DNA from: a virus
Lineage: Duplodnaviria > Heunggongvirae > Uroviricota > Caudoviricetes
Reading direction: 5' to 3' (one strand)
DNA: 64,000 bases
IMG/VR virus record: IMGVR_UViG_3300043464_001836
Location: 32,002 to 96,001 of that record
Under the pieces are notes generated by a model. It saw only the letters and a list, made by a program, of their open reading frames with translations. It was not told the origin of the DNA and did not search any database. The stretch's first letter is position 1; each line of letters begins with the position of its first letter. The position numbers and the translations under genes are program-made. Shown in pieces: positions 43,941 to 63,536 of this stretch.

Positions 43941-43987
43941 TTTGGGGTCGAACAGTTCCTCAAATTCTTTTATAATTATTTCTTTAA

Positions 43988-49737: not shown

Positions 49738-49936
49738 GATTTACATTATCAATGAGGCTGGAGAGCAGGTTAGGTATAAACCTAATAAAGGAGAAATGCT
49801 AGTAATGAACTCTCAAGGGGTTTACTTTGTTTATAACAACGAACCATTCTACCCCTCTATTACTAGACTATACGATAAGATTGGGAACTATATAGTAGTT
49901 TGGGAGAAAGAAAAGCTACTTGAGGTTCTTAAATAG
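49727..49936 (+). CDS. hypothetical protein
   Basis: ORF. Confidence 0.35.
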   Translation: MKFKIYIINEAGEQVRYKPNKGEMLVMNSQGVYFVYNNEPFYPSITRLYDKIGNYIVVWEKEKLLEVLK

Positions 49937-49998
49937 TTTCAACCTCTAAAGTTTGGGGTCGAATGCTTTAACGAAATACTCTATAATTACTTTATTGA

Positions 49999-50295
49999 AT
50001 GGAGAACGAAATGGAATTCCTTAAACTACTTATTAAAGACTTGAAAGATACTTTCACTGGTAACTCTCCCAAAGTACCTGAAAAAACTTATGCTGAAATG
50101 GTTAGGGAGATTCATGTTCAACGGTTCTGTGAAGGTTTGCTACTCAGCATTGAATACGATAAGTCTGGTGATATGCAGCGTGATGTTCGTATTGAGGATG
50201 CATCTTTACGAGAGCGGACAATTAATTTTCTAAATGAAAAGGGTTTTATTGTCAAAGTATTTCATGCTTCTAAAACTATTCAAGTTAAATGGTGA
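49999..50295 (+). CDS. hypothetical protein
   Basis: Same promoter/ATGGAGAACG leader as the Cys-motif family. Confidence 0.35.
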   Translation: MENEMEFLKLLIKDLKDTFTGNSPKVPEKTYAEMVREIHVQRFCEGLLLSIEYDKSGDMQRDVRIEDASLRERTINFLNEKGFIVKVFHASKTIQVKW

Positions 50296-50675
50296 AACCA
50301 ATGCTATATTTAATTCGCGGTGTGCCCGGTTCTGGTAAGTCTACAAAGGCTAGAGAACTACTAGAACAAGGGCTAGCTACTGTTCATCTAGAAGCTGATA
50401 TGTATTTTGAAGATGAAGAAGGTAACTATAAGTTTGAGCCTACTAAGATTGGTAGAGCACATAGCTGGTGTTTGTACCTTACTAGAAAGCACTTAGAAGA
50501 AGGGCACAACGTAGTTGTCTCTAATACCTTTATTAAGCGTTGGGAACTAGCTAAGTATGTTGCACTAGGATTTCCTTATGAGATCATTGAGTGTAAAGGT
50601 AGCTACGAGAGTGTACACGGTGTTCCGGCTGAAGTTGTTGCTAGAATGAAAGCTAACTATCAAGAGCTTGAGTAA
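50289..50675 (+). CDS. Polynucleotide 5-prime-kinase, kinase domain only (T4 Pnk N-domain-like)
   Basis: P-loop GVPGSGKSTKARE aligns with the T4 Pnk GCPGSGKSTWARE block. Pnk-like residues follow downstream. 128 aa, no phosphatase domain. Confidence 0.55.
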   Translation: MVKPMLYLIRGVPGSGKSTKARELLEQGLATVHLEADMYFEDEEGNYKFEPTKIGRAHSWCLYLTRKHLEEGHNVVVSNTFIKRWELAKYVALGFPYEIIECKGSYESVHGVPAEVVARMKANYQELE

Positions 50676-50716
50676 CACTTTCTACAATTAACACTTTCTA
50701 CAATTTGGGGTAAGAG

Positions 50717-50911
50717 ATGATTAAGATTTATTACTGGTGTGATGGTTGCTGGTGTTACTACAATGAGATTGGTCAGATGAGCCATAAGTCTGATGACTAC
50801 GCTACCCTAGAAGTACCTGATGAGTTTTGTGATCTAGAAATTGATGCGCTAGTTCATGATTTAGTAGCTAAAGAAGTGCTATCATTTGCAGAACTGTTTC
50901 ATAACCTCTAA
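50717..50911 (+). CDS. hypothetical protein
   Basis: ORF. Confidence 0.3.
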   Translation: MIKIYYWCDGCWCYYNEIGQMSHKSDDYATLEVPDEFCDLEIDALVHDLVAKEVLSFAELFHNL

Positions 50912-50974
50912 AACTTAAGAGCTTAAGTTTGGGGTTAACTTTTCTAGTAAAACCTTCTATAATTATTTCTTTGA

Positions 50975-51277
50975 ATGGAGAACGCAATGAAGAAGCATAA
51001 AGAACTAGTAATTGCTTGGCTTAACGGGGCTAAGATTCAGTATAGGCATAATGGCTGTGGTTGGACTGATATTGATGAGCCTAACTGGATAGAAAATATG
51101 GAGTATCAAGTTAAGCCATCCTACACTGAGGAAGTTAAGATTAAAGCAGTAGAAGGTGCTTACTGTGGTGGATGCATCTTTGAAGATCAGATGGTTTGTG
51201 GTTCCCTCATTACCACTATGGAGCTACTAGGACTTCCTAGCTGTCGTGAAGAGGCTATTCACTATGAAACTAATTAA
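50975..51277 (+). CDS. small Cys-motif protein, family member 4
   Basis: CGGC...C...LGLPSC motif. About 40 percent identical to member 1. Confidence 0.45.
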   Translation: MENAMKKHKELVIAWLNGAKIQYRHNGCGWTDIDEPNWIENMEYQVKPSYTEEVKIKAVEGAYCGGCIFEDQMVCGSLITTMELLGLPSCREEAIHYETN

Positions 51278-51536
51278 AGATTTTTTGCAGCGTAGACGTA
51301 ATGCACTTAAAGTAATAAAAGAGGTTGAAGCTGGTTTGTGGGAGCGCTATAGCACTATAGGTAGTAATGCAATGCAACTACATAAAGAAGACTGGCGGCT
51401 ACATATCGCTAATAAAACTGCTTTTCTATATAATTCTAAATACAACACAGAATCAATGCTAGGTGATTTTTGGGGTAGGTTTGTTTATGCCGTCTTGTGC
51501 AAAAAGCCTGTTAAGCCTAGCGCACCTGTTTACTAG
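51246..51536 (+). CDS. hypothetical protein
   Basis: ORF. Confidence 0.35.
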   Translation: MKRLFTMKLIKDFLQRRRNALKVIKEVEAGLWERYSTIGSNAMQLHKEDWRLHIANKTAFLYNSKYNTESMLGDFWGRFVYAVLCKKPVKPSAPVY

Positions 51537-51636
51537 AACATAAGTTTAACAATACGCAAGTTTAACCAATTTCACAACTAGAAGTTTACGGTTTACCAAT
51601 TCAACAGTTAGAAGTTTACGGTTTGGGGTCAAGAGA

Positions 51637-52416
51637 ATGAAGCCACTAGTAATGAAGAAAGAACATAACGGATTGACCATGCTTAAGTACTCTAAGCGAG
51701 TGTTCTGGGACAATCTATGGAACGATGAATTAATTGAGTGTCGTGGGCGGGTTGTTGACTCTGAAGGTAACGTAGTAGTAAACCCGTTCACCAAGGTTTT
51801 CAACTATCTAGAAAATGATACCAAAGTTCCACTAGACGAAGTTGTACTAGCAGTTGAAAAGATTAACGGTTTTATGGCAGCTCTTACGTGGCATGACGAA
51901 GCGTGGCTAGTAACGACTACTGGTTCTTTCGACTCTAAGTACGTTGAAATTGCTAAGCGTTACATTGGAGATTCTGGGCTACCTGAGCTAAATGGTGTTA
52001 CTTATTTGTTTGAGATTGTAGCGCCGGAAGATCCTCATATTATTCCTGAGCTAGAAGGAGCTTATCTACTAGGATACCGTACCGCTGGTTCACTAGTATA
52101 CACCTCTTATCTAGAAAAGGAAAAGAAGCTAGACTCACTAGCACGACAGTTTGGATATAAGCGTCCTAAGTACTTTCAGGCTACGTTTGGTGAGGTACTA
52201 GAGTTATCTAAGAAAGTTAGGCATGAGGGTTTTTGCATCTATGGTTCTGTTAACTTCAAGCTAAAGTCACCTTGGTATCTACAGTCTAAAGCTATTGCAC
52301 GCTCTAACCGTCGTCTAGCTCTTGACGAAGAGTTCTCTCAAATGCTCCTAGAAATGCCTAAGGTCTTGGGTGAGCAAGAGCGACTAGAGTTCATTCGTAA
52401 CTACTTTAAGGTCTAG
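51637..52416 (+). CDS. RNA ligase, Rnl1 family (T4 RnlA-like), short form
   Basis: LIECRGRVVDSEGNVV...NPFTKVFNYLEN aligns with T4 Rnl1 ALECRGIMFEMDGEKPV...NPFT. Motif I region AVEKINGFMAAL aligns with T4 LTKEDGSLVS. Confidence 0.55.
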   Translation: MKPLVMKKEHNGLTMLKYSKRVFWDNLWNDELIECRGRVVDSEGNVVVNPFTKVFNYLENDTKVPLDEVVLAVEKINGFMAALTWHDEAWLVTTTGSFDSKYVEIAKRYIGDSGLPELNGVTYLFEIVAPEDPHIIPELEGAYLLGYRTAGSLVYTSYLEKEKKLDSLARQFGYKRPKYFQATFGEVLELSKKVRHEGFCIYGSVNFKLKSPWYLQSKAIARSNRRLALDEEFSQMLLEMPKVLGEQERLEFIRNYFKV

Positions 52417-53532
52417 AAATGGAAATAGAAATGGAATTAGAAAGTGTTACTGACCCCAAACTGCAAATCTTTAACTTGGAACCGTTAAGAGTGCTTTCCC
52501 CAAACCGTAAAAGGTGATTAAACTGTAAAATCTAGTTCACTAGAAAACCTAAATGAACTAGAAAGATTGGCCCTGGCTGTTGTAGCTAGGGCTTTTTCTT
52601 TGGTTCTAGGTGGTTTCGACTGTTAAAGCAGTTTGATAAGTTTGGGGTGGGATACAACTAGTCGAACTCTCGATTTTTCCAGTTTGGGGTGACTTTTAAT
52701 GAAGCGAAAAAATACACTTGAACATCGAGCGAATTTTCCGATAAAAATATAGGTGAGATTTTCTGATTTAGATGTGGTAGGAAAATGCGAAAACAGCGAA
52801 AAATAAATTTTGATAATGTCCCTCGCTACGGTTTTCCCAGTTTGGGGTCCACGTTTGCTATCGTTTCTACACTGAAAAATTGCTTGAGAAAAAAAAATAT
52901 TGTTTTTGTAGTGACAGGAGTGTATAATGTTAGGAACAGAACGACAGATGCGCTGCTTTAGAGAAACAGCAGATAGGTTTTTTCACCATGGATAAAAGGC
53001 CTATCTGCTCTATAAAGTCTAAAGCAAGCGCATCTGTACACGAGGGCGAAGCTGTAATTATTAAAATCAAAGAAAAAAAGACGTAAAATAAGAATGTTTC
53101 GGGTTTTTACCGTTTTCCGTTGATTTTAAGCGAACTGAGCCACCCCTTCTCAAGCGGTTTCTAGAGAAAAGAATTTCTAGAAATGTTAAATTAATATTCT
53201 CCAGCCCTTTCTAATTCCTAGAAAGGTAATTTCTTGATATATTTAGGTTTTTTCGACTTTTTGGAATTTTGATTTCTACAATTTGGGGTCAGAAAAGCGC
53301 AGAACCAGTTTGACCCCAAACCGCAAGGGTTTCTAATCCGCTTTTGACCCCAAACTGGAAAAATCGGTCAAACCTATAAAGTTTGTGCTATCTAGTGTGT
53401 AATTTTGAGGTTGAAAGTCTCTACAGTTTGGGGTAAAATATTATTTAAGATGTAAGTGGGTGAGGACTGTGGTTTGTAAGTTCTTATTACCACTTAAAAT
53501 AATACCAAACCAAGTCAGTAAAGGAAACAAAA

Positions 53533-54422
53533 TGAAGCAGAGTAATTCAAAACAGCAAAGTAACCTAGCCTCACTAGAAGTAGACTTCTTACGTGCGGCT
53601 TTAGAAAATCCAAGTCTAATTAAGACTAACGATAAAGACTGGTTAACACACATTAAGCCAGTAGTAACGGCAGCACGCCCTACTATAGAAATTAATAAAA
53701 ATACTAGACTTTCTATGGAGCAACTTTTTAGCTTCTTAGGTACATCTAAAGTCCTAGAAGGAGGTTATACTACAGAGCAAGTACGCCTAGTTTACAGGAT
53801 TCTAGCTACGCACAACCGCTCAGATTACGTAGTGTCACAAAGTAAAAATACACAACACTCTTCTGCGGTACCTATTATCATGGCTGCTTACAGAGATAAG
53901 TACCAGATTAAGTACTCTAGTTGGATTCACGACCATATTGGAATGTCTAACGCTATTTTAGGTAAAACCCTATCCGAGGTTCTAGAGGTTAAAGAATACC
54001 TAGATTCACTAGGTAAGCAAGCAAAGCGTGCTCAAAAAACCTACGACACGGAGATGGGAGATAGTGAGTATGAAGACATGCTAGGCATTGAATCTCCTAG
54101 CCATGAGCCTATTGATGTATTTGACTTTGACTTTAGAGTGGACCTAAAGAATAGAGCCACCAAAAACGGTTCTATTCTAGATACTGGATATGCAACAATT
54201 AAGCGAGTATTCAAACCTGACCACCCACTAGGGTCGGAGTTTTTATCCAAGTTCTACTGGCACATGCTAACGCAGACATGGATTTTCTCACCAAGTATTC
54301 GCCACCGTGACATGATTACTAATTTGCAGGATTTTGATGTACTAGATCCTTCATTGACACCTCTAACAAACTTAGAGGATAAGTCCAACCCTAGCAAGAA
54401 AAGCTCTTTACTAGATTGGTAA
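53533..54422 (+). CDS. hypothetical protein (about 296 aa) embedded in the repeat-rich zone
   Basis: ORF with ribosome-binding site AAGGAAACAAAATG. A rho-independent terminator follows. Confidence 0.45.
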
Positions 54423-54424
54423 CA

Positions 54425-54452
54425 AAAAAGCCGCTAAATAGCGGCTTTTTGC
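54425..54452 (+). terminator. Rho-independent terminator
   Basis: AAAAAAGCCGCTAAATAGCGGCTTTTTGC. Confidence 0.65.
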
Positions 54453-54628
54453 ATTTCTTGACCCCAAACCGTAGAAATCTGACAAATTGACCACAAACCA
54501 AGACATTTTAGAGGTTTTTGTGACTTTTTGTGGGTATTTGAAACTTGTGAGATTTTAGTAACTTTTGAGGTTTGGGGTAAACGGTTCAGCAGTTTTTCCA
54601 GTTTGGGGTAAGGCTTATAAATACACGG

Positions 54629-54658
54629 TTGACAATTATTGCTGTGGAGATGTATAAT
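54629..54658 (+). promoter_or_regulatory. Consensus sigma70 promoter (TTGACA, 18-nt spacer, TATAAT)
   Basis: TTGACAattattgctgtggagatgTATAAT. Confidence 0.6.
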
Positions 54659-54664
54659 AGGCGC

Positions 54665-54750
54665 CGTGTTGAATTTAGCGCAAAACTTACGACTTATAAC
54701 TTATAACTTATAACTTACAAGTCGTAAGCTGCTGGGTTTTTCCCCCAAAC
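54665..54750 (+). ncRNA. candidate small RNA: long hairpin (CTTACGACTT...AAGTCGTAAG) followed by a T-run
   Basis: Transcript predicted from the promoter at 54629. Ten-bp stem with a 23-nt (TAACTTA)n loop, then GGTTTTTCCCCC. Confidence 0.35.
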
Positions 54751-54858
54751 CGCAGAAACTGCTCAACCCCAGAATCTTGACCCTAAACTGGAGAACTTGC
54801 TGAGGTGTGGGTGTTGCATAGGTCACTACAGTTTGGGGTCAGGCACAGTAATTTGCGG

Positions 54859-54888
54859 TTGATTTTATACTATACGGAGATGTATAAT
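54859..54888 (+). promoter_or_regulatory. Near-consensus sigma70 promoter (TTGATT, 18-nt spacer, TATAAT)
   Basis: TTGATTttatactatacggagatgTATAAT. Confidence 0.55.
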
Positions 54889-54894
54889 GGGCGC

Positions 54895-54978
54895 CGAGTG
54901 GAATTTAACGCAAAACTTACGACTTATAAGTTATGAGTTACAACTTATAAGTCGTAAGTTTTGCGTTTTTACCCCAAA
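54895..54978 (+). ncRNA. candidate small RNA, paralog of 54665..54750
   Basis: Same hairpin (CTTACGACTTATAAG...CTTATAAGTCGTAAG) and T-run. Confidence 0.35.
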
Positions 54979-54999
54979 CCGCAGAAACTGCAGAAACTT

Positions 55000-55428
55000 C
55001 TAGGATTTAGTAAGGTCCTTTAATTCCAGTAGTAGATAGTTAATATTACCTACCGCTTTAGCATGATCCTTTTCAATAATAACTGGATCTTGAAGTATTT
55101 TAACAAAGAACTTTATTAGTGCTATTACTTCCTCCATAGTACTTCTAGGGAATAAAAAGTTCCACATATCCTGTTCTTCCGGAGTTGTTAAAGTACTTAA
55201 AACATCTACTTGCAGTATCTTAGGCCCCTCTTCTGAGTCTTCCATAGTAAGAGGTTCGCCACTTAGATACTTCTTATATAAATCACTATCTTTAAAGAAG
55301 GGCTTAGTTTTAGCTTTAACGTAGTACTTTAGTGTACTCTCCGGGATACCTATAGTTTGCGCAATATCTCCCCAAGTGTACCCTTGTTCCCTAGCTAGAG
55401 ATACAAGCTGCTTAATTTTATCATCCAT
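55000..55428 (-). CDS. HTH DNA-binding protein
   Basis: N-terminal HTH YTWGDIAQTIGIPESTLKYYVK. Confidence 0.45.
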   Translation of the reverse strand: MDDKIKQLVSLAREQGYTWGDIAQTIGIPESTLKYYVKAKTKPFFKDSDLYKKYLSGEPLTMEDSEEGPKILQVDVLSTLTTPEEQDMWNFLFPRSTMEEVIALIKFFVKILQDPVIIEKDHAKAVGNINYLLLELKDLTKS

Positions 55429-55657
55429 TTCTTAATTCTCCTATTACTACACTTTTCTATAAACTTACAACTTATGACTCATAACTTACAACTTATAACT
55501 TATAACTTACAAGTCGTAAGTTAATATTTTACCCCAAACCGCTAACCTGTTCAACCTCAGATTTTTACCCTAAACCGCGGAAATTAGGTTAGTCGCTACA
55601 GTTTGGGGTTGCGGGGGACTGCTACAGTTAGTTCAGTTTGGGGTCAGGAATCTGGCC

Positions 55658-55687
55658 TTGATTTTACATGATGTGGAGAAGTATAAT
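55658..55687 (+). promoter_or_regulatory. Near-consensus sigma70 promoter (TTGATT, 18-nt spacer, TATAAT) reading into the GGCGC-repeat and 9-mer array region
   Basis: TTGATTttacatgatgtggagaagTATAAT. Confidence 0.55.
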
Positions 55688-55900
55688 TGGCGCAGACTAG
55701 TACTAGAAACGAATTTTGAGGTTGACTCGGTTTCGTACTGGCGGGCGCAGAGATAATACTGATGTTGTTTCGATTTTGCACTAGGGCGCGTAGATAATTT
55801 TGCGCTTGTTTCACTTTTTCACTGGGGCGCGTGGCAAGCTTAAAATTGTTTCGTCGATTTACTACTCAGGCGCGGCGAAGCCGCGCTGGCCCGGAGGGCC

Positions 55901-56086
55901 AAACGTCAAAAACGTCAAAAACGTCAAAAACGTCAAAAACGTCAAAAACGTCAAAAACGTCAAAAACGTCAAAAACGTCAAAAACGTCAAAAACGTCAAA
56001 AACGTCAAAAACGTCAAAAACGCCAAAAACGTCAAAAACGCCAAAAACGTCAAAAACATCAAAAACATCAAAAACATCAAAAACAT
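55901..56086. repeat. Tandem 9-bp repeat (CAAAAACGT)n, about 20 copies, degenerating into CAAAAACAT x4
   Basis: Read directly from the sequence. The ORFs overlapping this stretch are repeat-translation artefacts. Confidence 0.85.
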
Positions 56087-56877
56087 GGATGCGAATGATT
56101 CTCACTAACTTCCTGGAAAACAACAAATCCACATTGTCTCACGCCGGCGGTAGGCTTGTCAATAACTCTAGAGGGTTATTTACAAAAAACTTTTTTCGTG
56201 GTAGCCATAAGAAAAACTTATAGCCATATAAAAAAATTTCATAGGCCGGCCTGGTGGATAGTATTTTTCTAGTGCTGTCAAATAAAATTTTTCTATAGCA
56301 AAAAACGCTTGTAAGTCTTTGATTCTAAAGAGAAATCCTAGAATCGACGTTCTCCTGCTGGCCTACACCCTGCTATCAATAAAGGGGAAAACGCCTCAAA
56401 ACGCCTCAAAACGCCTATAAACGGCAGTTGCGAAAAAACCACACTTTTTTGCAGGAAATTTGACCGTTAGCGTTTTTCGTGCTAGTGAAAAACCGCGCTT
56501 GACTACCTGCCAAATATCGTGCTATTCGTGCATGAAAAAATAATTGTTGCGCTTGGCTGATTATTGTGTTATCGCGTACACGTCTAAAGACTAAAAAGAG
56601 GCCGGAAAGAAAAAAGCCTTTAAAATCAAAGACTTAAAATTATTTTGAAATATCTTCAAAATTTTTTGAAAAACGCTTTACAGGGTCAGTCATAGTCTGG
56701 ATAATTCATCACATCGAAACAGCAACAGCAGCAAGGCAAGGCAAGGCAAGGCCTCCGGGCCATGCTGGCCAGGCCCTCGCTCTTTAAAAATTTGGAAAAA
56801 TCGGCTTTCTCCGGCGAGAGTATCAAATAGATGCCGCTTTAATAGGCGGCATTATTGGATAATTTTGTCCGAATTAA

Positions 56878-57087
56878 TTGGAGTTTATCATGATTGAAGT
56901 AATGGTTAATGGTAAATGGTTTGCAGTTCGTCAATCTTGCGGGATTTACCAGAAAATGATCTACGTAGAGTCTGGACACGGCATTTATTCCGGTTTTGAT
57001 GAACTGTCCAATATTCAAGGTTGGAAATTGGATGGGGAAATATCCAATTATGCTACCTGTAAGCAATTGCTCAAATTTACACGGTAA
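56878..57087 (+). CDS. hypothetical protein (GC-richer island)
   Basis: ORF whose codon usage differs from the rest of the window. Confidence 0.35.
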   Translation: MEFIMIEVMVNGKWFAVRQSCGIYQKMIYVESGHGIYSGFDELSNIQGWKLDGEISNYATCKQLLKFTR

Positions 57088-57186
57088 GAACTAATCAGGC
57101 ATTAACGCTTAATAATTAGGCGTTAATACCGGGCTATTTCAAAAAACCCGATTTCCCGTTTTTCAATTTTTTTTGGAGTAAATAGC

Positions 57187-57606
57187 ATGGCCGAAAGCAA
57201 AAAAACCCCGACGTGGACGCCGGAACAGACTGTTTCTCTTGTGGCCGCATGGGATGCGGTTAACCGGGACAATAAGCGTATCGACGAAGTAGCGGCAAAG
57301 ATGGGCCGTAGTGCCGCGTCCTGCCGCATGAAGCTTGTTCGGGAAGGCTTGTATCAAAAAGCGGAAAATCTGACAAAAACGGGGGAAAGCGTAATTTCCC
57401 GCGAGGAATTGGCTGATTCTATCGCCGCCTATCTGCCCGCCACCGTTTCTGATGACGTTAGCAGCCTCGCCAAGACGAATAAGCGAATTCTCAAAGCAAT
57501 CAAAAAATTGCTGGATGAAAACGCTCAATTCCGGAAAGCGGCAATGGAATCTTTCGAGACTGACGCGGAAACCGTGGAAACGGAAAACCCGGAATTGGCT
57601 GATTAA
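57187..57606 (+). CDS. hypothetical protein (island)
   Basis: ORF followed by a terminator. Confidence 0.4.
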   Translation: MAESKKTPTWTPEQTVSLVAAWDAVNRDNKRIDEVAAKMGRSAASCRMKLVREGLYQKAENLTKTGESVISREELADSIAAYLPATVSDDVSSLAKTNKRILKAIKKLLDENAQFRKAAMESFETDAETVETENPELAD

Positions 57607-57613
57607 TTAATCC

Positions 57614-57640
57614 ACGCCGGGGCAATTCCCGGCGTTTTAG
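57614..57640 (+). terminator. Rho-independent terminator
   Basis: CGCCGGGGCAATTCCCGGCGTTTT. Confidence 0.6.
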
Positions 57641-57733
57641 GAAATCAAAATGCGCTTATCAATATTTGTGGCGATTGTTTCGTGTCTTAGTTTTATCACG
57701 GCATTAATCAATTTTTTCTGTAAAGGTTAACCA

Positions 57734-57997
57734 ATGGAAATCTTGCCATACTTAGGAATTATGCTATTGACTGCCGGAAGTGTAGGCATTCGAGTTGCGC
57801 AGCAATTAAACGTAACCCGTGGATACTTTATTAGGGCATTCTTTACAAGTTACGTGTTCACGGCATTTGATGCCTTAGTCGTTGGAGTGTATGCAAAGTT
57901 AATGCTAGACGGCGACTATATCAAATTGATATTCGCCGGTACTGGTTCCGCATTAGGTGGACTAATTGTAATGTTTTTTTATAGGAAATCGAAATAA
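57734..57997 (+). CDS. small membrane protein (island)
   Basis: Two to three hydrophobic helices. Confidence 0.4.
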   Translation: MEILPYLGIMLLTAGSVGIRVAQQLNVTRGYFIRAFFTSYVFTAFDALVVGVYAKLMLDGDYIKLIFAGTGSALGGLIVMFFYRKSK

Positions 57998-58701
57998 TGG
58001 CAAAGAAGGCATGGTATTTGCTGGTTGATACCGAGACTACCCTATCGGGGCGCGTGGTTGATTTTGGCGCCATTATCGTTGATAGAAATGGGGAAATTCA
58101 TAAAAGAATCGCCGTATTAATCAAGGGCATTTTCGGCGTGGAAGAATTGTTTTTTGATGTTAATTCCAAAGACGAAATTTGGACAAAACGCGGATTGGAG
58201 AAACGGAATCAGAATTACGTGGAACATTTGAATAATGGAACACGAATGCTTGCGAGTGTATCGGCCATTAATAAATGGCTTATGCAAGCAATGATAACTT
58301 ATTCTCCAAGTGTAACCGCTTTCAATCTTGCTTTTGACAAAGACAAATGCCAAAAAACCGGAATTGACTTATCCATCTTTACCGATCAATTCTGTTTATG
58401 GCATCTTGCTTGCGGCCATTATGCGAACACGAAAGCTTACCGCGCGTTTATTCTGGATAACCATTGTATTAATCCGCCCACGGAATTGCGCAATTGCACG
58501 TATCAGACTAATGCCGAAGTAATGGCGTCTTATCTTTCCGGTGGCATGTTGCCACCGGAGCCGCATACAAGTTTGGAAGACTGTATCGACTACGAGTTGC
58601 CGATATTGAGAGCCATTCTCAAACGTAAAAAATGGCGTGAGAGGATAAAGCCGTATAACTGGCGGGATTATCAAATTCGGGATGCCTTCGTTGCAAAGTA
58701 G
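57997..58701 (+). CDS. DEDDh 3-prime-5-prime exonuclease (DnaQ/oligoribonuclease-like)
   Basis: Exo I LLVDTETT, Exo II FNLAFD, Exo III HTSLEDC (H-x4-D). Confidence 0.6.
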   Translation: MAKKAWYLLVDTETTLSGRVVDFGAIIVDRNGEIHKRIAVLIKGIFGVEELFFDVNSKDEIWTKRGLEKRNQNYVEHLNNGTRMLASVSAINKWLMQAMITYSPSVTAFNLAFDKDKCQKTGIDLSIFTDQFCLWHLACGHYANTKAYRAFILDNHCINPPTELRNCTYQTNAEVMASYLSGGMLPPEPHTSLEDCIDYELPILRAILKRKKWRERIKPYNWRDYQIRDAFVAK

Positions 58702-58714
58702 GACAGGAACCACC

Positions 58715-58828
58715 GGCCTGTGGTGGCCTGTGGTGGCCTGTGGTGGCCTGTGGTGGCCTGTGGTGGCCTGGGGTGGCCTGGGGTGGCCTGGGGTGGCCTG
58801 GGGTGGCCTGGGGTGGCCTGGGGTGGCC
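58715..58828. repeat. Tandem 8-bp repeat (GGCCTGTG x5, then GGCCTGGG x7)
   Basis: Read directly from the sequence. Intergenic. Confidence 0.85.
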
Positions 58829-58875
58829 TGGGGTGGCAGTAAAAACTTTTCTTTTATCTTTTTGGGGTAATTAGC

Positions 58876-59157
58876 ATGAACAAAAAACAGTTCGCAGAAA
58901 TTGGTGGTAAAGTTTTTCATTTTCCGGCCTATGGCATTACCATTGCAATTCGAGAGGCATGTAAAAACGGCGATTTTCTGCACTTTGCCATCGCACAATG
59001 CAGCAATGCGGACACCTACAGCAAGAAACGCGGAAAACGCATTGCACTAGGTTATATGTCTGTAGGTGGTTATATGGCAATTAGGAAGGGGAAACTGCAA
59101 AGCATGCGAAAGCATGCCGAATACATCGCGGCATTTTTTGGCAATGGGACGAATTGA
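58876..59157 (+). CDS. hypothetical protein (island)
   Basis: ORF followed by a hairpin. Confidence 0.4.
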   Translation: MNKKQFAEIGGKVFHFPAYGITIAIREACKNGDFLHFAIAQCSNADTYSKKRGKRIALGYMSVGGYMAIRKGKLQSMRKHAEYIAAFFGNGTN

Positions 59158-59379
59158 TTAATTAACCGGAATTCGCCAGCCTAATAAGCTGGCGAATTAA
59201 TAGAATGAAAAATTCAATAATACAGCCAATCTTCTATCCTATCTTATGGAAAGAATATTGTAGAGTTATGCGAATTCACCCATATAGTCAATGGGAGTAT
59301 TTAAAGAAGCATAAACAGGATTATATGGATTTCATAGCCTTATATTTGAATTACGATCAAGTAACCGGGGTGAAATAAA

Positions 59380-59571
59380 ATGCCAGCCTATACATTCTTA
59401 ATTCGTCGTAATGGAATGAATTATTTTGTTTTAGTGCGGGGATTAAAATTCGATTACATCAGACAGGAAACCTATTACGCCACAATCAAAAAACTTTGTA
59501 AGCAATTAAAAACTGAAAAAGCGGCAATTGCTTATATTGATAAAATGAAAAAATTATTGGGCGACGAATAA
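59380..59571 (+). CDS. hypothetical protein (island)
   Basis: ORF followed by a hairpin. Confidence 0.35.
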   Translation: MPAYTFLIRRNGMNYFVLVRGLKFDYIRQETYYATIKKLCKQLKTEKAAIAYIDKMKKLLGDE

Positions 59572-60030
59572 AAACCGCTTGCAAAGTGTACGGAAAGCCG
59601 GATAGAATATCGGCTTTCCAATACAGGATGAATGAGATGAAAAAAATCCTTGCATTTTCTGAGTATCAGCGGGTTAACTTCTATAAGACTCGCCGTGTTT
59701 CGTTTTTTCAAATTTTGGTCGATATATTATTCCGGTAAAAAACGCTTGACAAAATCGCGGACACCTGCTACACCGCGATTTTGTCAGTTGTTTCACTTTT
59801 ATCACTTCCAGGGGGGCGGTTATCAGACTTTTCATTTTCCGTAACCCTATCGCACCCCCGCGCGCGGTAAATTAAAAAATTTATCAAAACTAGAATATAT
59901 TGTACTGTACTGTACTGACCCCAAACTGTAAATCTTGTCAGTTTGTTCTAGTTAAAAATAGGCTTGATTTTATATTCGTATTATTGTAGAATGCACTAAC
60001 AGTTAAAAATTCTACTACCAAAAGAAGGCC

Positions 60031-60477
60031 ATGTCAACCAACGAAATAGTTCCCATCTCCCCTGAGTCTCTAGAAATAATGCAAGTGTACCTTAGCACTC
60101 AGTCAATCGCTGAAACTGCTAGGCGTTTAGGTATACATGATACTCTAGTGTCCCAATATTTAAATAAGCCCGAAGTTAAAAGATACCTAGACCACGTATA
60201 CCTAAGTAGCGGGTACCGAAATAGGGATAAGATAGCAGAAGTTATGGACTCGGTTATCGAGACTAAACTCTCTGAGATGGTAGAAACTGGTCTAGGTAGT
60301 ACTAAAGATATTGCAGACTTGCTGACGCTAGCTCATAAGATGCGTATGGACGAATTAAAGGCTATTACGGAATACGAAAAAGCTAAAGAAGGTTCTAGTA
60401 TCAAAAAGCAAACCAATATTCAAATCAACAATAACCAGCCTAATTACTCAGACTTACTTGGAAAACTGTTAGGCTAA
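60031..60477 (+). CDS. Terminase small subunit-like HTH protein
   Basis: N-terminal HTH SIAETARRLGIHDTLVSQYLNKPEV. Located upstream of the terminase large subunit. Confidence 0.45.
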   Translation: MSTNEIVPISPESLEIMQVYLSTQSIAETARRLGIHDTLVSQYLNKPEVKRYLDHVYLSSGYRNRDKIAEVMDSVIETKLSEMVETGLGSTKDIADLLTLAHKMRMDELKAITEYEKAKEGSSIKKQTNIQINNNQPNYSDLLGKLLG

Positions 60478-60520
60478 TTAAAAACTACTAGCCTACTAAG
60501 GCTAATTTAAGGAGAAATAA

Positions 60521-61354
60521 ATGAGCTTCCCAATTTTTAGAAATTCATACGAGTGGACTACTGTAACTACTAGTGGTGAAAACATTCGTGCCACTAACCG
60601 CAAAACCGGCGAAACCTTCACAGGTACTCTAGCCGCTTTCGATGAACTAATGAACGATAGACTAGAAGGTATCGGTCTAGTTGCCCAGTCTACTATTCCC
60701 GTCGGCATCGCCCCAAGTGGTTCAGTTGCCCCTAATGGAGCTATTACTCTAGGTACAGCTCTACCAGTTATCTACTCTAGTGGTATCTGGCTAGCTCTAC
60801 CTGCTGATGCTGCTTATACTGATGCACCCGCCGGAACCTATTGGTGTGTAATGTCTAGCACTACTGTTGGTACTGTATACGACGAAGTGCTAGTTGGCGT
60901 TCCTACTATTCCTAGCGCCCCTACAGCAATCGTAGATGCTCGCGAAGCAACTAACTACACTGGCGTTACTACTGAAGTTGCCCTAGTTACTGCTACTGTA
61001 GCTGGCGGACTAGTTGGTGCTAACGGTTCCATCAAGATTAACTTCGCTGGATCGCAGAACTCTTCTGCTGGTGCTAAGACCTATGTAGTTAAGGGTGGAG
61101 CAGGAACCTGGCTATCTAGCGCTGCTACTACAACCGCTTCAGCTCTATACGACTTTACTGTTGGTAACCGCGGTAGTGCTGCTGTTAACTTTAGTACTGG
61201 CGTAAACGCTAATGGCCTAGGTGCTCGTGGTTTCCTAGCAACTACTGTAGATACTGCTAGCAACTTCAACGTTACTTTCAACGCTACTCTAGCCGTTGCT
61301 ACTGACTACGTTCTTTATGAGCACGTAGAAGTCCTAGTAGCCCCCAAACTGTAA
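60521..61354 (+). CDS. Gly/Ala/Thr-rich putative virion structural protein
   Basis: Low-complexity beta-rich composition. A strong hairpin terminator follows. Confidence 0.4.
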   Translation: MSFPIFRNSYEWTTVTTSGENIRATNRKTGETFTGTLAAFDELMNDRLEGIGLVAQSTIPVGIAPSGSVAPNGAITLGTALPVIYSSGIWLALPADAAYTDAPAGTYWCVMSSTTVGTVYDEVLVGVPTIPSAPTAIVDAREATNYTGVTTEVALVTATVAGGLVGANGSIKINFAGSQNSSAGAKTYVVKGGAGTWLSSAATTTASALYDFTVGNRGSAAVNFSTGVNANGLGARGFLATTVDTASNFNVTFNATLAVATDYVLYEHVEVLVAPKL

Positions 61355-61524
61355 AAACTTAGTAGGCCGGTGATTTATATGCACCAGCCTACTAACCTTT
61401 AATTATTCTTAAGTGTTCCTACGAATGCTTAAGAATAATTAACGGAGGTGACACGGAGTTGCAACTCCTTCTAGGTTCCTAACTAGATAGCCTCCACCTA
61501 CATAGTCCTATAGGAGGGACAAAA

Positions 61525-62244
61525 ATGATTGATGATAAATTAGTAGAAGAGATTTACGCTGCGTTAGTTGAACGGTTTGGTATTAGTGAAATATTCTTGC
61601 CTAAGAGGGGTAAGAATAGACCATTAGATATAACTTGGAAGGACTTTATTAAAGCTGCTTTAGAGCTAGAGCCAACAGAGTTATATAGCTTCTGTGGTTA
61701 TGCTAATAAAGTTAATTTTAGCAAGGGGCTAAAGAATACACATCCTAATATAATGCTAGATAAAGATGGAAGACATTGGGCAGGGTACTTACTATGTCTA
61801 GTTGGCTATAAACTATGCCCAGAATGTGGTGAAGTGCTACCTACATCAGTATTTAGTCACAGTAATAGTACAAAAGATGGATTACAGTCTACCTGTAAAG
61901 GCTGCGACGCTACCTCTAGGGAAGCAAATAAAGAATACTTTAAAGAGTACTCTAAAAAATATTACGCAGCAAATAAAGAATACTTTAAAGAGTACTATGA
62001 AAGTAACAAGCACCTGTATATAGCTTATAGTGCGAAACGCAGAGCTTCAAAGCTTAAAGCGACCCCAAAATGGGCAAACCTGGTAGCCATAAAAGAAATT
62101 TACCAAACATGCCCAGAGGGGTATCATGTAGACCATATAATTCCACTTCAAGGTAAATTAGTGTGTGGTCTTCATTGTGAGTTCAATCTACAGCATCTTC
62201 TAGCTAGTGAGAATTTAATTAAAGGTAATAGGTTCGAAGTATGA
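61525..62244 (+). CDS. HNH homing endonuclease (family 1 paralog) between the terminase genes
   Basis: Shared N- and C-terminal modules. Confidence 0.8.
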   Translation: MIDDKLVEEIYAALVERFGISEIFLPKRGKNRPLDITWKDFIKAALELEPTELYSFCGYANKVNFSKGLKNTHPNIMLDKDGRHWAGYLLCLVGYKLCPECGEVLPTSVFSHSNSTKDGLQSTCKGCDATSREANKEYFKEYSKKYYAANKEYFKEYYESNKHLYIAYSAKRRASKLKATPKWANLVAIKEIYQTCPEGYHVDHIIPLQGKLVCGLHCEFNLQHLLASENLIKGNRFEV

Positions 62245-63536
62245 TAAAAGTATCCAGACCCGATATCAGCAGTACAGAAATTCAACAGTTCTCAGCACAT
62301 GAACGTTTTATTAAGCTTCCTATTGATAAGTACTTAGAATTACTAGGCATGACTCTTAATGCACCTCAAATTGCAATAGTTAATGCGCTTAATAACCCTA
62401 AGTATAGATTCGTTACTGCTGCAGTATCTCGTCGCGTTGGTAAGACTACAATTTCTAACATCATAGCACAAGTAATTACTCTAGTACCTGGAAGTGCGGT
62501 ACTGATCATGTCTCCTAACTACTCCCTTTCTAGTATTTCATTTGAAGAGCAGCGTAAGCTGATCAAGAAATTTGACCTAGAAGTGAGTCGTGATAATATG
62601 AAGGACCGAATGATAGAACTATCTAATGGTTCTAGCATCCGTATGGGTTCCGTATCACAAGTTGACTCAGTTGTTGGCCGTTCATATGACCTCATTCTCT
62701 TTGACGAGGCGGCCTTAACGACTGAGGGTAAAGAGGCGTTCGAAGTTGCTTTAAGGCCTACCCTAGATAAACCTAATTCTAAAGCTATTTTTGTCTCCAC
62801 ACCACGTGGACGCTTAAATTGGTTTTCTCAGTATTGGGAAAACGGGTTCTCCGACCTACCGGCCTATTCTAAGTGGGCTTCAGTTCATGCAGACTATAGA
62901 GCGAATCCTCGCGCAAACGAAGAAGATATTGAAGAAGCTCGCGCTACTATGTCTAAAGCCAAGTTCGAGCAGGAATACATGGCTAGCTTTAGCGTATTCG
63001 AGAATCAGGTATACAAGTTCGATGCCGATGCTAGCGTAGTTGAAGTTGATACTAGCGGAATGGAACATATCATGGGTATCGACGTTGGTTTCCGGGACCC
63101 TACCGCTATGCTAGTTCTAGCGTTTGATGGTGAGAAGTTCTATGCTGTAGACGAGTATCTAGAAGCAAACAGAACAACTGACGAACATGCAGCTGTATGT
63201 AAAGAGCTAGAAAGTAAGTACGACGTACAGGTAATCTTTATTGATTCCGCAGCACAGCAGACTCGCTTCGACTGGGCACAGAATCACGATATCTCTACTA
63301 CTAACGCTACTAAGTCAGTTCTAGATGGTATCGCCTATGTTCAAGCAATTGTGGAGCAAGGTAAGCTAGTTGTTAGTCCTAAGTGTAAACATACGCTAGC
63401 AGCACTAGACCAGTACCGCTGGGATCCTTCACCAAGTCTATTGCGTGAGAAACCACTTCATGACCAGTTTTCCCACGTTGCGGATGCGCTTCGCTATGCG
63501 TTATACAGCTATCGTAGTAACGTTGGCATATATTAA
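62241..63536 (+). CDS. Terminase large subunit
   Basis: Walker A VSRRVGKTT, Walker B LILFDEAA and a C-terminal nuclease-like domain (MGIDVGFRDPTA). ATGA overlap with the HNH gene. Confidence 0.8.
   Translation: MIKVSRPDISSTEIQQFSAHERFIKLPIDKYLELLGMTLNAPQIAIVNALNNPKYRFVTAAVSRRVGKTTISNIIAQVITLVPGSAVLIMSPNYSLSSISFEEQRKLIKKFDLEVSRDNMKDRMIELSNGSSIRMGSVSQVDSVVGRSYDLILFDEAALTTEGKEAFEVALRPTLDKPNSKAIFVSTPRGRLNWFSQYWENGFSDLPAYSKWASVHADYRANPRANEEDIEEARATMSKAKFEQEYMASFSVFENQVYKFDADASVVEVDTSGMEHIMGIDVGFRDPTAMLVLAFDGEKFYAVDEYLEANRTTDEHAAVCKELESKYDVQVIFIDSAAQQTRFDWAQNHDISTTNATKSVLDGIAYVQAIVEQGKLVVSPKCKHTLAALDQYRWDPSPSLLREKPLHDQFSHVADALRYALYSYRSNVGIY

What the first reader, a model, noticed from the sequence alone, without database searches (positions are those of the whole stretch)
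56800..59600. Compositionally foreign island encoding a DEDDh exonuclease and five small proteins, bounded by tandem repeats
From about 56.8 to 59.6 kb the GC content and codon choice shift sharply (GCC, CGG, CCG-rich, against the AT-rich, CTA/TAG-rich bulk). The island is entered through (GCAAG)n and ends at CTGTACTGTACTG next to an ACCCCAAACT site. It carries its own terminators and an internal (GGCCTGTG)5(GGCCTGGG)7 repeat. Its largest gene is a complete DEDDh 3-prime-5-prime exonuclease (VDTETT, FNLAFD, H-x4-D). Recently acquired phage exonucleases of this class are candidates for degrading nucleotide second messengers from CBASS, Pycsar or type III CRISPR. Other candidate roles are degrading nanoRNA or modifying host nucleic acids.
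Basis: partly seen in the sequence, partly recalled or inferred. Interest (0 to 1): 0.65.

Follow-up and report, generated by a model that had tools for sequence, protein, structure and literature searches.

The report
T5-like early module with orphan exonuclease
The flagged stretch is not a recently imported foreign island but the inherited early host-takeover gene block that sits beside the DNA-packaging genes of an uncultivated T5-like phage, and its largest gene is a real but uncharacterised DNA/RNA-trimming exonuclease placed where phage T5 keeps its host-DNA-destroying gene A1.

Summary
Observation partly confirmed. All three repeats exist, with corrections: the internal unit is 10 bp, not 8, and the right-hand repeat lies at 59.9 kb, not 59.6 kb. 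The GC shift is modest and patchy (0.428 against 0.403). It comes from one gene and one repeat array, and the exonuclease gene has ordinary composition.

The "foreign island" reading fails. The window is a T5-like phage. The block is collinear with T5's pre-early region next to terminase: an A2 homologue, a small membrane protein, then a nuclease, then TerS and TerL. The exonuclease sits in the A1 slot.

In 77 of 80 related viral contigs the T5-type dNMP phosphatase gene (dmp) lies just upstream on the same strand. A1 and this exonuclease never co-occur: 0 of 80 loci one way, 0 of 43 the other.

Most likely role, inferred only: an early DNA exonuclease that makes 5'-dNMPs for Dmp, analogous to T4 DexA. 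Breaking cyclic-nucleotide signals is unlikely.

Verdict: a new variant of a known kind, of moderate interest.

The parts
54423..54999 (+). Untranslated region with two promoter-plus-palindrome cassettes. The sigma70-like promoters lie at 54629-54658 (12/12 match) and 54859-54888 (10/12). Each is preceded by AGTTTGGGGT and followed by a long hairpin, at 54679-54728 and 54907-54967.
   Evidence: 26-bp perfect stem, dG -37.8 kcal/mol, z -11.5
55000..55428 (-). 142-aa ORF with weak helix-turn-helix-like hits, flanked by 67-nt inverted palindromic elements (54905-54971 and 55458-55524). This segment is replaced by other genes in the nearest relative L004.
55429..56877 (.). About 1.45 kb untranslated repeat region. 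Contents: third palindromic element 55458-55524; promoter-like site 55658-55687; 41-bp x2.1 at 55743-55830; (AAACGTCAA)x20.4 at 55901-56084; (AAAACGCCTC)x2.9 at 56388-56416; promoter-like site 56677-56705; (GCAAG)x4.4 at 56731-56752; hairpin 56830-56853. The arrays are conserved in relatives with copy-number variation. No DnaA boxes.
56890..57087 (+). 65-aa ORF of unknown function, present in nearest relatives only. A GGAG ribosome-binding site precedes the ATG at 56890.
57187..57606 (+). 139-aa distant homologue of T5 pre-early DNA-binding protein A2. It is the only truly GC-rich gene of the block (GC 0.512, GC3 0.55).
   Evidence: phrog_1725 E 1e-5. T5 A2 itself matches phrog_1725 at 4e-52. 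hhalign of a 27-sequence family alignment against T5 A2: probability 75%, E 2.5e-5, end to end. GC figures.
57611..57638 (+). Terminator-like hairpin after the A2-like gene (7-bp GC stem followed by UUUU).
   Evidence: dG -17.8, z -3.6
57650..57730 (+). 26-aa hydrophobic peptide ORF (MRLSIFVAIVSCLSFITALINFFCKG).
   Evidence: read directly from the sequence
57734..57997 (+). 87-aa small membrane protein. Its stop codon overlaps the start of the next gene (TAATG). It occupies the position of T5.005, the two-transmembrane protein between A2 and A1 in T5.
   Evidence: (weak holin-family hit, 1e-4)
57997..58701 (+). 234-aa DEDDh (DnaQ-like) 3'-5' exonuclease of an uncharacterised, mostly phage-borne subfamily (phrog_20187).
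   Evidence: No Pfam, NCBIfam or PADLOC match.
58715..58837 (.). Intergenic 10-bp tandem array, (GGCCTGTGGT)x5 then (GGCCTGGGGT)x7. Relatives 94% identical in the exonuclease carry a different unit, GTAGCACCCC x10 or x15, at the same site. The array is homogenised within each phage and differs between phages. Function unknown.
58876..59157 (+). 93-aa ORF of unknown function. Found in 10 of 80 related loci and only 75% DNA identity to L004. A hairpin follows at 59170-59198.
59205..59571 (+). Two AT-rich ORFans (57 and 63 aa) found in none of the 80 exonuclease-anchored loci and falling in a segment (59209-59569) that does not align with L004. This is the only segment that looks like a local replacement. 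A hairpin follows at 59592-59619.
59572..60030 (.). Untranslated spacer before TerS. Contents: hairpin 59740-59792; (TGTAC)x3.4 at 59901-59917; ACCCCAAACT at 59918-59927; promoter-like site 59964-59992. It is 95.7% identical to L004.
60031..60477 (+). T5-type small terminase subunit. It anchors the block at the position of the T5 terminal-repeat/terminase junction.
   Evidence: phrog_3802 E 1e-40
62241..63536 (+). T5-type large terminase subunit, about 50% identical to those of Vibrio, Yersinia and Salmonella T5-like phages.

Best explanation
It is the counterpart of T5's pre-early (first-step-transfer) region.

It is inherited with the phage backbone and was not recently imported. It consists of untranslated repeat regions plus one rightward operon: a small ORF, an A2-like DNA-binding protein, two small membrane peptides, a DEDDh 3'-5' exonuclease, and small ORFans. 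TerS and TerL follow.

The exonuclease belongs to an orphan subfamily of the DnaQ-like superfamily and sits where T5 has A1.

Most likely mechanism (inferred, not shown): it is made early from host-type promoters. Using two metal ions held by D11, E13, D114 and D195, with H190 as general base, it digests DNA ends or oligonucleotides from the 3' end into 5'-dNMPs. This would contribute to host-chromosome destruction and nucleotide catabolism.

In most relatives those dNMPs would be the substrate of the T5-type dNMP phosphatase Dmp, encoded immediately upstream. The window's own subclade has lost or lacks dmp.

SHOWN: fold, catalytic residues, synteny, collinearity with T5, and mutual exclusivity with A1 within 10 kb.

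INFERRED: timing of expression, DNA as substrate, and coupling to Dmp.
For: T5-LIKE BACKBONE.
- TerL about 50% identical to T5-like phages; TerS in phrog_3802.
- Primase, DnaB, split NAD-dependent ligase, D5-like regulator, tRNA block.
- Relatives carry the T5 nicking endonuclease, portal and TerS Pfam families.

A2 HOMOLOGY..

COLLINEARITY WITH T5'S RIGHT TERMINAL REPEAT.
- T5: A2, then (005), then A1, then dmp, then TerS, then TerL, all on one strand.
- Window: A2-like, then membrane protein, then DEDDh, then small ORFs, then TerS, then TerL.

EXONUCLEASE IDENTITY.
- Conserved D-E-D-D-h residues.
- Profile hits to DnaQ, Orn and PolC with motifs in register.
- pLDDT 97.4.

SYNTENY IN 80 IMG/VR LOCI.
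- TerS and TerL lie within 10 kb in 75 of 80.
- dmp lies upstream on the same strand in 77 of 77 loci that have it; median gap 326 bp, minimum 5 bp.

A1 AND THE EXONUCLEASE DO NOT CO-OCCUR.
- No A1 in the 80 loci or the window: phmmer gives 0 hits in 3283 ORFs, while T5 dmp gives 85.
- No DEDDh in 43 A1-bearing loci, using 87 queries.

CO-DIVERGENCE WITH TerL..

ANALOGY TO T5. T5's terminal repeat likewise carries three untranslated repeat regions (bioRxiv 10.1101/866236).

BIOLOGICAL PRECEDENT.
- In T5, A1-dependent host-DNA breakdown yields nucleotides that Dmp converts to nucleosides (bioRxiv 10.64898/2026.04.02.716235).
- T4 DexA, a DEDDh enzyme, scavenges host DNA (PMC12153337).
Against: - No activity, substrate or expression timing was measured.
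- Terminal redundancy and two-step injection cannot be tested from sequence alone.
- The window has no dmp anywhere in its 64 kb, so the proposed Dmp coupling cannot operate in this particular phage.
- The structural neighbours include RNases (RNase T, ERI1, REXO2/Orn) as close as DNases.
- A2 homology is weak: E about 1e-5, hhalign probability 75%.
- T5's DnaA-box signature is absent from 54.4-60 kb.
- The 80 syntenic loci were retrieved through the exonuclease itself, so conservation among them is partly circular.
- In a TerL-anchored sample, only 1 of 4 loci with at least 4 kb upstream of TerS carries the gene.
- Absence of A1 is shown only within 10 kb of the exonuclease and within this window, not for whole genomes.
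- 37 of the 43 A1 loci are close T5 relatives, so they are not independent observations.
Confidence: 0.55

Rival explanations
1. One reading: a recently acquired foreign island whose DEDDh enzyme protects the phage by degrading nucleotide second messengers of CBASS, Pycsar or type III CRISPR.
For: - The block is variable between close relatives: 75-92% identity against 96-98% in the flanks, and two ORFans differ.
- The family is not universal among T5-like phages.
- Early-region genes of phages are often anti-defence genes (general knowledge).
Against: - The composition is not foreign.
- Synteny and co-divergence with TerL argue for inheritance.
- 3'-5' exonucleases of this fold need a free 3'-OH, which cyclic oligonucleotides lack (general knowledge).
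- The known anti-signal nucleases use other folds: Acb1 is a 2H phosphoesterase and Apyc1 a metallo-beta-lactamase (recalled; the paper is listed but was not read).
- No PADLOC hit.
- The listed papers for that search contain no occurrence of DEDDh.
- The conserved partner gene is a dNMP phosphatase.
Confidence: 0.05
2. It is an early RNA exonuclease. It would be either Orn/REXO2-like, clearing nanoRNAs or pGpG, or RNase T/ERI1-like, trimming host RNAs, as part of shutting off host gene expression.
For: - Foldseek's best solved-structure hits are QIP, REXO2 and oligoribonucleases.
- The profile matches Orn through motifs I and III.
- The window encodes two RNA ligases and 14 tRNAs, so RNA transactions matter to this phage.
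Against: - The conserved upstream neighbour is a deoxynucleotide phosphatase homologous to T5 Dmp.
- The gene occupies the slot of a DNA-degradation gene.
Confidence: 0.17
3. It processes the phage's own DNA rather than the host's. Working with the A2-like DNA-binding protein, it would trim the entering or nicked T5-type genome for DNA-transfer completion, end protection, recombination or repair.
For: - It is in an operon with A2, directly downstream of a membrane protein.
- In T5, A1 and A2 act together in second-step transfer and A1 associates with the membrane.
- T5-type nicking endonuclease genes lie next to TerL in relatives.
- T4 DexA also acts on phage DNA during intron homing.
Against: - There is no evidence for two-step transfer in this lineage.
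- In most relatives the exonuclease is adjacent to dmp rather than A2, and the A2-like genes lie at variable positions and on either strand.
Confidence: 0.15
4. It is a stand-alone proofreading (epsilon-like) subunit for the phage replicase.
Against: - It lies about 50 kb from the replication genes found at the window's left end (primase, DnaB helicase, ligase), in the block of small early genes.
- It is linked to dmp and TerS, not to a polymerase, in 75-77 of 80 loci.
- T5-type family A polymerases carry their own 3'-5' exonuclease domain (general knowledge).
- Distant family members sit in early-gene blocks of Enterococcus phages.
Confidence: 0.03

Closest known systems
Phage T5 pre-early (first-step-transfer) region in the long terminal repeat: dmp, A1, A2 and the untranslated repeat regions
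   Same: - Same genomic position next to TerS and TerL, and the same gene order and strand: A2, small membrane protein, nuclease, then terminase.
- An A2 homologue is present.
- A dmp homologue is present in 77 of 80 relatives.
- Many small ORFs are interspersed with untranslated direct and inverted repeat regions.
   Different: - No A1, which was reported in all 227 Demerecviridae genomes analysed. A DEDDh exonuclease of unrelated fold takes its place.
- No dmp in this window.
- No DnaA boxes.
- The block spans about 5.6 kb against 10.2 kb in T5.
- Terminal redundancy and two-step injection are unverified.
- In most relatives the module is inverted relative to TerS.
Phage T4 DexA (exonuclease A; PDB 8KEL/8KEN)
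   Same: - A phage-encoded, stand-alone DEDDh 3'-5' exonuclease of similar size (227 against 234 aa).
- It has a documented role in scavenging host DNA.
   Different: - Sequence similarity is insignificant: profile E 1.2-1.9.
- It is a more distant structural neighbour than epsilon, TREX1 or ExoX.
- The genomic context and phage family differ.
- There is no evidence here for discrimination of 5hmC-modified DNA.
Cellular DnaQ-like DEDDh exonucleases: Pol III epsilon, ExoX, ExoI, TREX1, RNase T, Orn/REXO2
   Same: - The three Exo motifs are present, including the H-x4-D variant.
   Different: - Only 11-17% identity.
- Not recognised by Pfam RNase_T or by NCBIfam.
- About 70 extra residues beyond the minimal core.
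- Distribution so far is in phage contigs only.
phrog_20187, including homologues in Enterococcus phages VRE9 and EF1/EF5
   Same: Same protein family (E 6e-9; tblastn 27-28% identity). These homologues also sit in blocks of small same-strand hypothetical genes.
   Different: They are carried by unrelated 134-142 kb Enterococcus phages. There is no dmp, A2 or terminase linkage in the 8.7-kb stretch examined (all features annotated as hypothetical proteins). All are annotated as hypothetical proteins.

Membership tests
DEDDh (DnaQ-like) 3'-5' exonuclease superfamily | Exo I motif D-x-E | tested here: met
   D11 and E13 (LLVDTETT) are at least 90% conserved in 87 homologues. They align with the DnaQ and PolC motif.
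DEDDh (DnaQ-like) 3'-5' exonuclease superfamily | Exo II motif N-x2-3-(F/Y)-D | tested here: met
   N110 and D114 (AFNLAFD) are at least 90% conserved. They align with YNIHFD of DnaQ 8h18.
DEDDh (DnaQ-like) 3'-5' exonuclease superfamily | Exo III motif H-x4-D (the 'h' subclass) | tested here: met
   H190 and D195 (EPHTSLED) are at least 90% conserved. They align with H-x-A-L-D-D of Orn 1j9a.
DEDDh (DnaQ-like) 3'-5' exonuclease superfamily | RNase H-like alpha/beta fold | tested here: met
   [not shown]
DEDDh (DnaQ-like) 3'-5' exonuclease superfamily | Match to the curated sequence model (Pfam PF00929 RNase_T or an NCBIfam equivalent) | tested here: not met
   No Pfam hit at E up to 0.1 and no NCBIfam hit at E up to 1. 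One distant family member reaches PF00929 below threshold, E 0.0095. Membership therefore rests on fold and motifs.
DEDDh (DnaQ-like) 3'-5' exonuclease superfamily | Metal-dependent 3'-5' exonuclease activity | not testable with these tools
   Needs biochemistry.
T5-type pre-early (first-step-transfer) module | Lies next to TerS and TerL at the terminal-repeat junction, in T5 gene order | tested here: met
   T5: A2 6086, A1 6844, dmp 9362, TerS 13335, TerL 13814, all on the + strand in L093. Window: 57187, 57997, 60031 and 62241, all on the + strand.
T5-type pre-early (first-step-transfer) module | A2 DNA-binding protein | tested here: met
   Weak but consistent: phrog_1725 E 1e-5, which is T5 A2's own family at 4e-52; hhalign probability 75%, E 2.5e-5 over the full length.
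T5-type pre-early (first-step-transfer) module | A1, reported as the hallmark of Demerecviridae | tested here: not met
   No tblastn or phmmer hit in the window or in the 80 exonuclease-anchored loci plus 10 context loci. No window ORF scanned against PHROGs matched phrog_1745. Hallmark status.
T5-type pre-early (first-step-transfer) module | dmp (5'-dNMP phosphatase) | tested here: not met
   Absent from the 64-kb window. Present next to the exonuclease in 77 of 80 relatives.
T5-type pre-early (first-step-transfer) module | Untranslated repeat regions, including paired DnaA boxes (the injection stop signal) | tested here: inconclusive
   Repeat-rich untranslated regions are present. There are no TTWTNCACA boxes in 54.4-60 kb. 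One relative, L047, has an array containing TGTGGATAA.
T5-type pre-early (first-step-transfer) module | Located within a long direct terminal repeat, injected first and transcribed first | not testable with these tools
   Needs reads or virion DNA ends and time-resolved transcription data.
Horizontally acquired genomic island | Composition distinct from the host genome | tested here: not met
   26 of 612 equal-sized windows are at least as GC-rich. Only one gene and a repeat array deviate. The deviation of that gene is clade-wide.
Horizontally acquired genomic island | Absent from close relatives; bounded by insertion scars, att sites, a tRNA or an integrase | tested here: not met
   Present and syntenic in all close relatives with enough sequence: L004, L005, L012 and L014. 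The named repeats lie inside aligned blocks. There is no integrase, and the nearest tRNA is 30 kb away.
Phage anti-signalling nucleases (Acb1, Apyc1, AcrIII-1) | 2H-phosphoesterase, metallo-beta-lactamase or DUF1874 fold | tested here: not met
   The fold is DnaQ-like. The folds of the named families are recalled from the literature, not tested here.
T4 DexA family | Detectable sequence homology to DexA | tested here: not met
   [not shown]

The most novel reading that the evidence does not exclude
A large branch of uncultivated T5-like phages has replaced A1 with an unrelated DEDDh exonuclease. A1 is the metallophosphatase-type nuclease reported as the universal hallmark of Demerecviridae, essential for host-DNA destruction and second-step DNA transfer. 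The replacement sits in the same operon slot, downstream of A2 and a small membrane protein and next to dmp. On this reading the DEDDh enzyme is the clade's primary host-chromosome destroyer and possibly A2's partner for completing DNA entry. That would be a non-orthologous displacement at the heart of the T5 infection strategy.
Probability: 0.25. Interest if true: 0.6.

Novelty: new variant of a known kind. Interest (0 to 1): 0.4.

Why it matters
T5's two-step infection and its unusually fast destruction of host DNA depend on A1 and A2, and how A1 works is still under study. This clade keeps the T5 backbone, A2 and Dmp but carries a different, structurally simple nuclease in A1's place. That offers a natural experiment on which part of the pre-early programme needs a nuclease, and which kind.

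It also gives a first functional handle on a protein family with more than 1,100 clusters at 90% identity, and 263 at 50%, that no curated database currently recognises.

For the scan itself, the case shows that a GC blip plus repeats in a phage can mark an inherited early-gene block rather than a foreign island.

Tried and rejected
- Stop-codon recoding as the cause of the TAG/CTA richness. The standard code already gives about 75% coding in ORFs of at least 100 aa.
- DNA similarity to known phages. No blastn match for 56.6-60.0 kb.
- Direct sequence search of the Protein Data Bank with the single protein. Nothing meaningful.
- T5 pre-early proteins against the window by tblastn. No hits.
- Rfam on 54-60.2 kb. 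Only sub-threshold hairpin look-alikes.
- DnaA boxes. None in the block.
- The 320-aa ORF at 53460-54422 and the related '277-aa' family, which lies next to an A2-like paralogue in relatives, as a hidden A1. hhalign probability 0.05%, and no Protein Data Bank hit.
- Domain fusions in distant family members as functional hints. Only LRV/HEAT repeats, which are uninformative.
- Names from source databases. All are 'hypothetical protein'.
- RNA G-quadruplex function for the G-rich array. The equivalent array in relatives is C-rich on the same strand, so a strand-specific RNA G-quadruplex role is not conserved.
- A first locus search with the 87-sequence alignment failed because no stretch was conserved enough. 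It was repeated with 14 closer sequences.
- A TerL-anchored, unbiased prevalence test gave too few loci with enough upstream sequence to be decisive: 1 of 4.

Full report
**1. What the window is**

The window is a piece of a T5-like siphophage genome.
- The large terminase (62241-63536) is about 50% identical to those of Vibrio, Yersinia and Salmonella T5-like phages.
- The small terminase (60031-60477) belongs to the T5-type family phrog_3802.
- Positions 1-35 kb, on the minus strand, carry primase, a DnaB-type helicase, a split NAD-dependent ligase, a D5-like regulator, phosphoesterases and 14 tRNA genes.
- Positions 35-55 kb, on the plus strand, carry RNA ligases, PhoH, PRPP synthetase, NAMPT and thymidylate synthase.
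- The window holds nine paralogous EndoVII/HNH-type endonuclease genes, on both strands.
- The standard genetic code is in use.
- Nothing in the phage GenBank collection matches the flagged DNA.

**2. Checking the observation**

The repeats are real, but two details are off.
- (GCAAG)x4.4 lies at 56731-56752.
- The internal array at 58715-58837 has a 10-bp unit, (GGCCTGTGGT)x5 then (GGCCTGGGGT)x7, not an 8-bp unit.
- (TGTAC)x3.4 lies at 59901-59917, directly followed by ACCCCAAACT at 59918-59927. That is 300 bp beyond the stated end.

The composition shift is weak and patchy.
- The island has GC 0.428 against 0.403 for the window.
- 26 of 612 equal-sized windows are at least as GC-rich, and the maximum lies elsewhere, at 41-43.8 kb.
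- Only two short stretches are raised: the ORF at 57187-57606 (GC 0.512, GC3 0.55) and the tandem array.
- The exonuclease gene is ordinary (GC 0.428, z=0.6).
- The last two ORFs are AT-rich.

Stable hairpins follow three genes, one of them with a U-tract.

**3. The exonuclease**

The 234-aa protein matches nothing in Pfam, NCBIfam, PADLOC, or the Protein Data Bank by single-sequence search. Its only family match is the function-unknown phrog_20187.

It nevertheless has many relatives.
- More than 1,100 clusters at 90% identity, all about 232 aa and all unannotated.
- 263 representatives at 50% identity.

Several lines identify it as a DEDDh enzyme.
- In an 87-sequence alignment, D11, E13, N110, D114, H190 and D195 are at least 90% conserved.
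- A profile of that alignment weakly hits DnaQ, Orn, a PolC exonuclease domain and T4 DexA, with the three Exo motifs in register.
- The AlphaFold2 model is very confident: pLDDT 97.4, pTM 0.92.
- Foldseek on the Protein Data Bank and on viral models agrees.

The protein belongs to an orphan subfamily.

**4. What the block is**

The GC-rich ORF is a distant homologue of T5 A2, the pre-early DNA-binding protein.
- It hits phrog_1725 at E 1e-5.
- T5 A2 itself hits phrog_1725 at 4e-52.
- A 27-sequence family alignment matches T5 A2 end to end: hhalign probability 75%, E 2.5e-5.

Contigs carrying the closest exonuclease homologues have the same gene order as the window. More distant contigs place the gene directly after a T5-type dNMP phosphatase (Pfam PF26880, T5 Dmp), between TerS and early genes.

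I scanned IMG/VR with the family alignment. It returned 308 loci, of which the best 80 were analysed.
- 75 of 80 have T5-type TerS and TerL within 10 kb.
- 77 of 80 have dmp. It is always upstream and on the same strand, with a median gap of 326 bp and a minimum of 5 bp.
- A2-like genes are present in most of these loci (71 and 73 of 80 with the two A2-like queries).

In T5 itself, read from the right terminal repeat into the unique region, the order on one strand is A2, 005 (a two-transmembrane membrane protein), A1, dmp, TerS, TerL. The window reads A2-like, 26-aa and 87-aa membrane peptides, DEDDh, small ORFs, TerS, TerL. The two are collinear, with the exonuclease in the A1 slot.

Upstream of the operon, 54.4-56.9 kb is largely untranslated and dense in direct repeats, palindromes and sigma70-like promoters. 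T5's terminal repeat likewise holds three untranslated repeat regions. T5's paired DnaA boxes, however, are absent here.

**5. Foreign island or inheritance?**

Several results argue for inheritance.
- A2-like genes are GC-richer than their loci across the clade, by 5.7% on average. Exonuclease genes are slightly GC-poorer.
- Exonuclease and TerL identities to the window fall together: 94/95, 71/70, 62/72 and about 53/58%.

Against the nearest relative L004, the block is a mosaic.

| Window segment | Identity to L004 |
|---|---|
| 48249-54680 (left flank) | 98.4% |
| 54680-55262 | no alignment (segment replaced) |
| 55262-56759 | 89.7% |
| 56857-58704 | 92.4% |
| 58859-59208 | 75% |
| 59209-59569 (two AT-rich ORFans) | no alignment (segment replaced) |
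| 59570-61403 | 95.7% |
| 61404-62240 | HNH gene, inserted in the window |

The block is therefore a fast-evolving accessory region of the phage, not a fresh import.

Two caveats apply.
- The 80 loci were found through the exonuclease itself.
- In a TerL-anchored sample of 80 loci, few had enough upstream sequence. Only 1 of 4 with at least 4 kb beyond TerS carried the exonuclease and dmp. The family is widespread but not universal.

**6. A1 and the exonuclease**

A1 is reported in all 227 Demerecviridae genomes analysed, and as necessary and sufficient for host-DNA digestion.
- T5 A1 finds nothing in the window or in the exonuclease-anchored and context loci: tblastn, plus phmmer against 3283 ORF fragments. 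T5 dmp finds 85.
- Conversely, none of 43 A1-bearing IMG/VR loci has a family member within 10 kb, using 87 queries at E up to 0.01. 37 of those 43 have dmp.
- An unknown 260-340-aa family lies next to a second A2-like paralogue in relatives and is weakly related to the window ORF at 53460-54422. It is not A1-like.

**7. Mechanism**

Shown: fold, catalytic residues, operon structure, neighbours, and the relationship to T5.

Inferred: the enzyme is an early 3'-5' exonuclease acting on DNA and releasing 5'-dNMPs. It would take part in host-DNA breakdown and feed Dmp where Dmp is present. It would be functionally analogous to T4 DexA and to the A1-dependent pathway in T5.

The window's own subclade lacks dmp, so that coupling cannot be general.

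RNA substrates are not excluded, since RNase T, ERI1 and REXO2 are equally close structural neighbours. Acting on the phage's own DNA together with A2 is also not excluded.

Opening cyclic second messengers is unlikely for an enzyme that needs a free 3' end. Nothing found here supports it.

**8. Unexplained**

The 10-bp array starts 14 bp after the exonuclease stop codon. It is homogeneous within each phage but differs between near-identical phages in unit sequence and copy number: GGCCTG[T/G]GGT x12.3 here, GTAGCACCCC x10 or x15 in relatives. The 9-bp array (AAACGTCAA) x20 is conserved, with copy-number changes. Their roles are unknown.

**9. Verdict**

The feature is a new variant of a known kind. 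It is a T5-type pre-early module in which an orphan DEDDh exonuclease stands where A1 stands in T5. Interest is moderate, at 0.4.

Noticed in passing
window 38731-59927 (17 sites, e.g. 54600, 54830, 55635, 59918): The 10-mer ACCCCAAACT (reverse complement AGTTTGGGGT) occurs 17 times against 0.09 expected. The sites are mostly intergenic. Several lie 20-35 nt upstream of sigma70-like -35 boxes of plus-strand promoters. Variants reading ACCCCAAACCGCAGAAAC cluster at 54.4-55.6 kb. This may be a regulator-binding or UP-like element of the early promoters.
   Followed up: partly
window 54560-54730, 54810-54975, 55458-55690: Three copies of a cassette made of AGTTTGGGGT, a near-consensus promoter (TTGACA-18-TATAAT at 54629-54658) and a long palindrome (26-bp perfect stem at 54907-54967, dG -37.8 kcal/mol). 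These could be small-RNA genes or bidirectional terminators. Two of them flank the ORF at 55000-55428 as 67-nt inverted repeats, and that segment is swapped for other genes in relative L004.
   Followed up: partly
window 55901-56084, 55743-55830, 43821-43944, 29420-29571: Other tandem arrays: (AAACGTCAA)x20.4, conserved at x18.4 in L004 and L012; a 41-bp unit x2.1; (TTTGAAG)x17.6, which ends in an AGTTTGGGGT site; and a 74-bp unit x2.1.
   Followed up: partly
window 11614-12393, 19592-20275, 25461-26279, 26931-27524, 29749-30429, 38682-39422, 46353-47102, 48304-49023, 61525-62244 (plus 23552-24019): Nine paralogous EndoVII/HNH-type endonuclease genes (phrog_1035/26577), plus one further HNH gene, in 64 kb. 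The copy at 61525-62244 is an insertion between TerS and TerL relative to L004, which suggests active homing.
   Followed up: partly
window 40876-43753: An NAD-salvage gene set: PRPP synthetase-like (40876-41676), a phosphatase (41673-42236) and nicotinamide phosphoribosyltransferase (42272-43753). It could counter NAD-depleting defence systems.
   Followed up: no
window 60521-61354: A 277-aa protein rich in Ala, Gly, Thr and Val (GC 0.475) with no family match, lying between TerS and TerL. In relative L014 its homologue lies elsewhere (8568-9398), so the gene moves around.
   Followed up: partly
L001/L002 (ENA scaffold_53, 114162 bp), L001:6563-20699: In one T5-like contig the whole 5.1-kb unit, from A2-like through dmp to DEDDh, is present in at least four tandem copies that are 99.0-99.4% identical. 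This could be real amplification or an assembly artefact of a terminal repeat or strain mixture.
   Followed up: partly
window 37933-38169 and 53460-54422: A second A2-like paralogue (E 4e-13 to the A2-like protein of L008). Also a 320-aa ORF weakly related to an unknown 260-340-aa family that sits beside an A2-like gene in 24 of 80 relatives. That family has no detectable similarity to A1 or to any solved structure.
   Followed up: partly
whole window: TAG (1724) and CTA (1785) trinucleotides are far commoner than TGA (971) or TCA (974). This is not explained by stop-codon reassignment.
   Followed up: partly
L047:7445-7603: A relative carries a 39-bp x4.1 array made of TGTGGATAA (DnaA-box) repeats between TerS and dmp. 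This echoes the DnaA boxes of T5's injection-stop region, which are absent from this window.
   Followed up: no
window 57170-57189 and 58859-58878: Near-identical translation-initiation regions, TTTTGG(A/G)GTAA(A/T)TAGCATG, precede the A2-like gene and the 93-aa ORF. L004 has a similar sequence, TTTTTTGGAGCAAATAGCATG, before its 93-aa ORF homologue.
   Followed up: no
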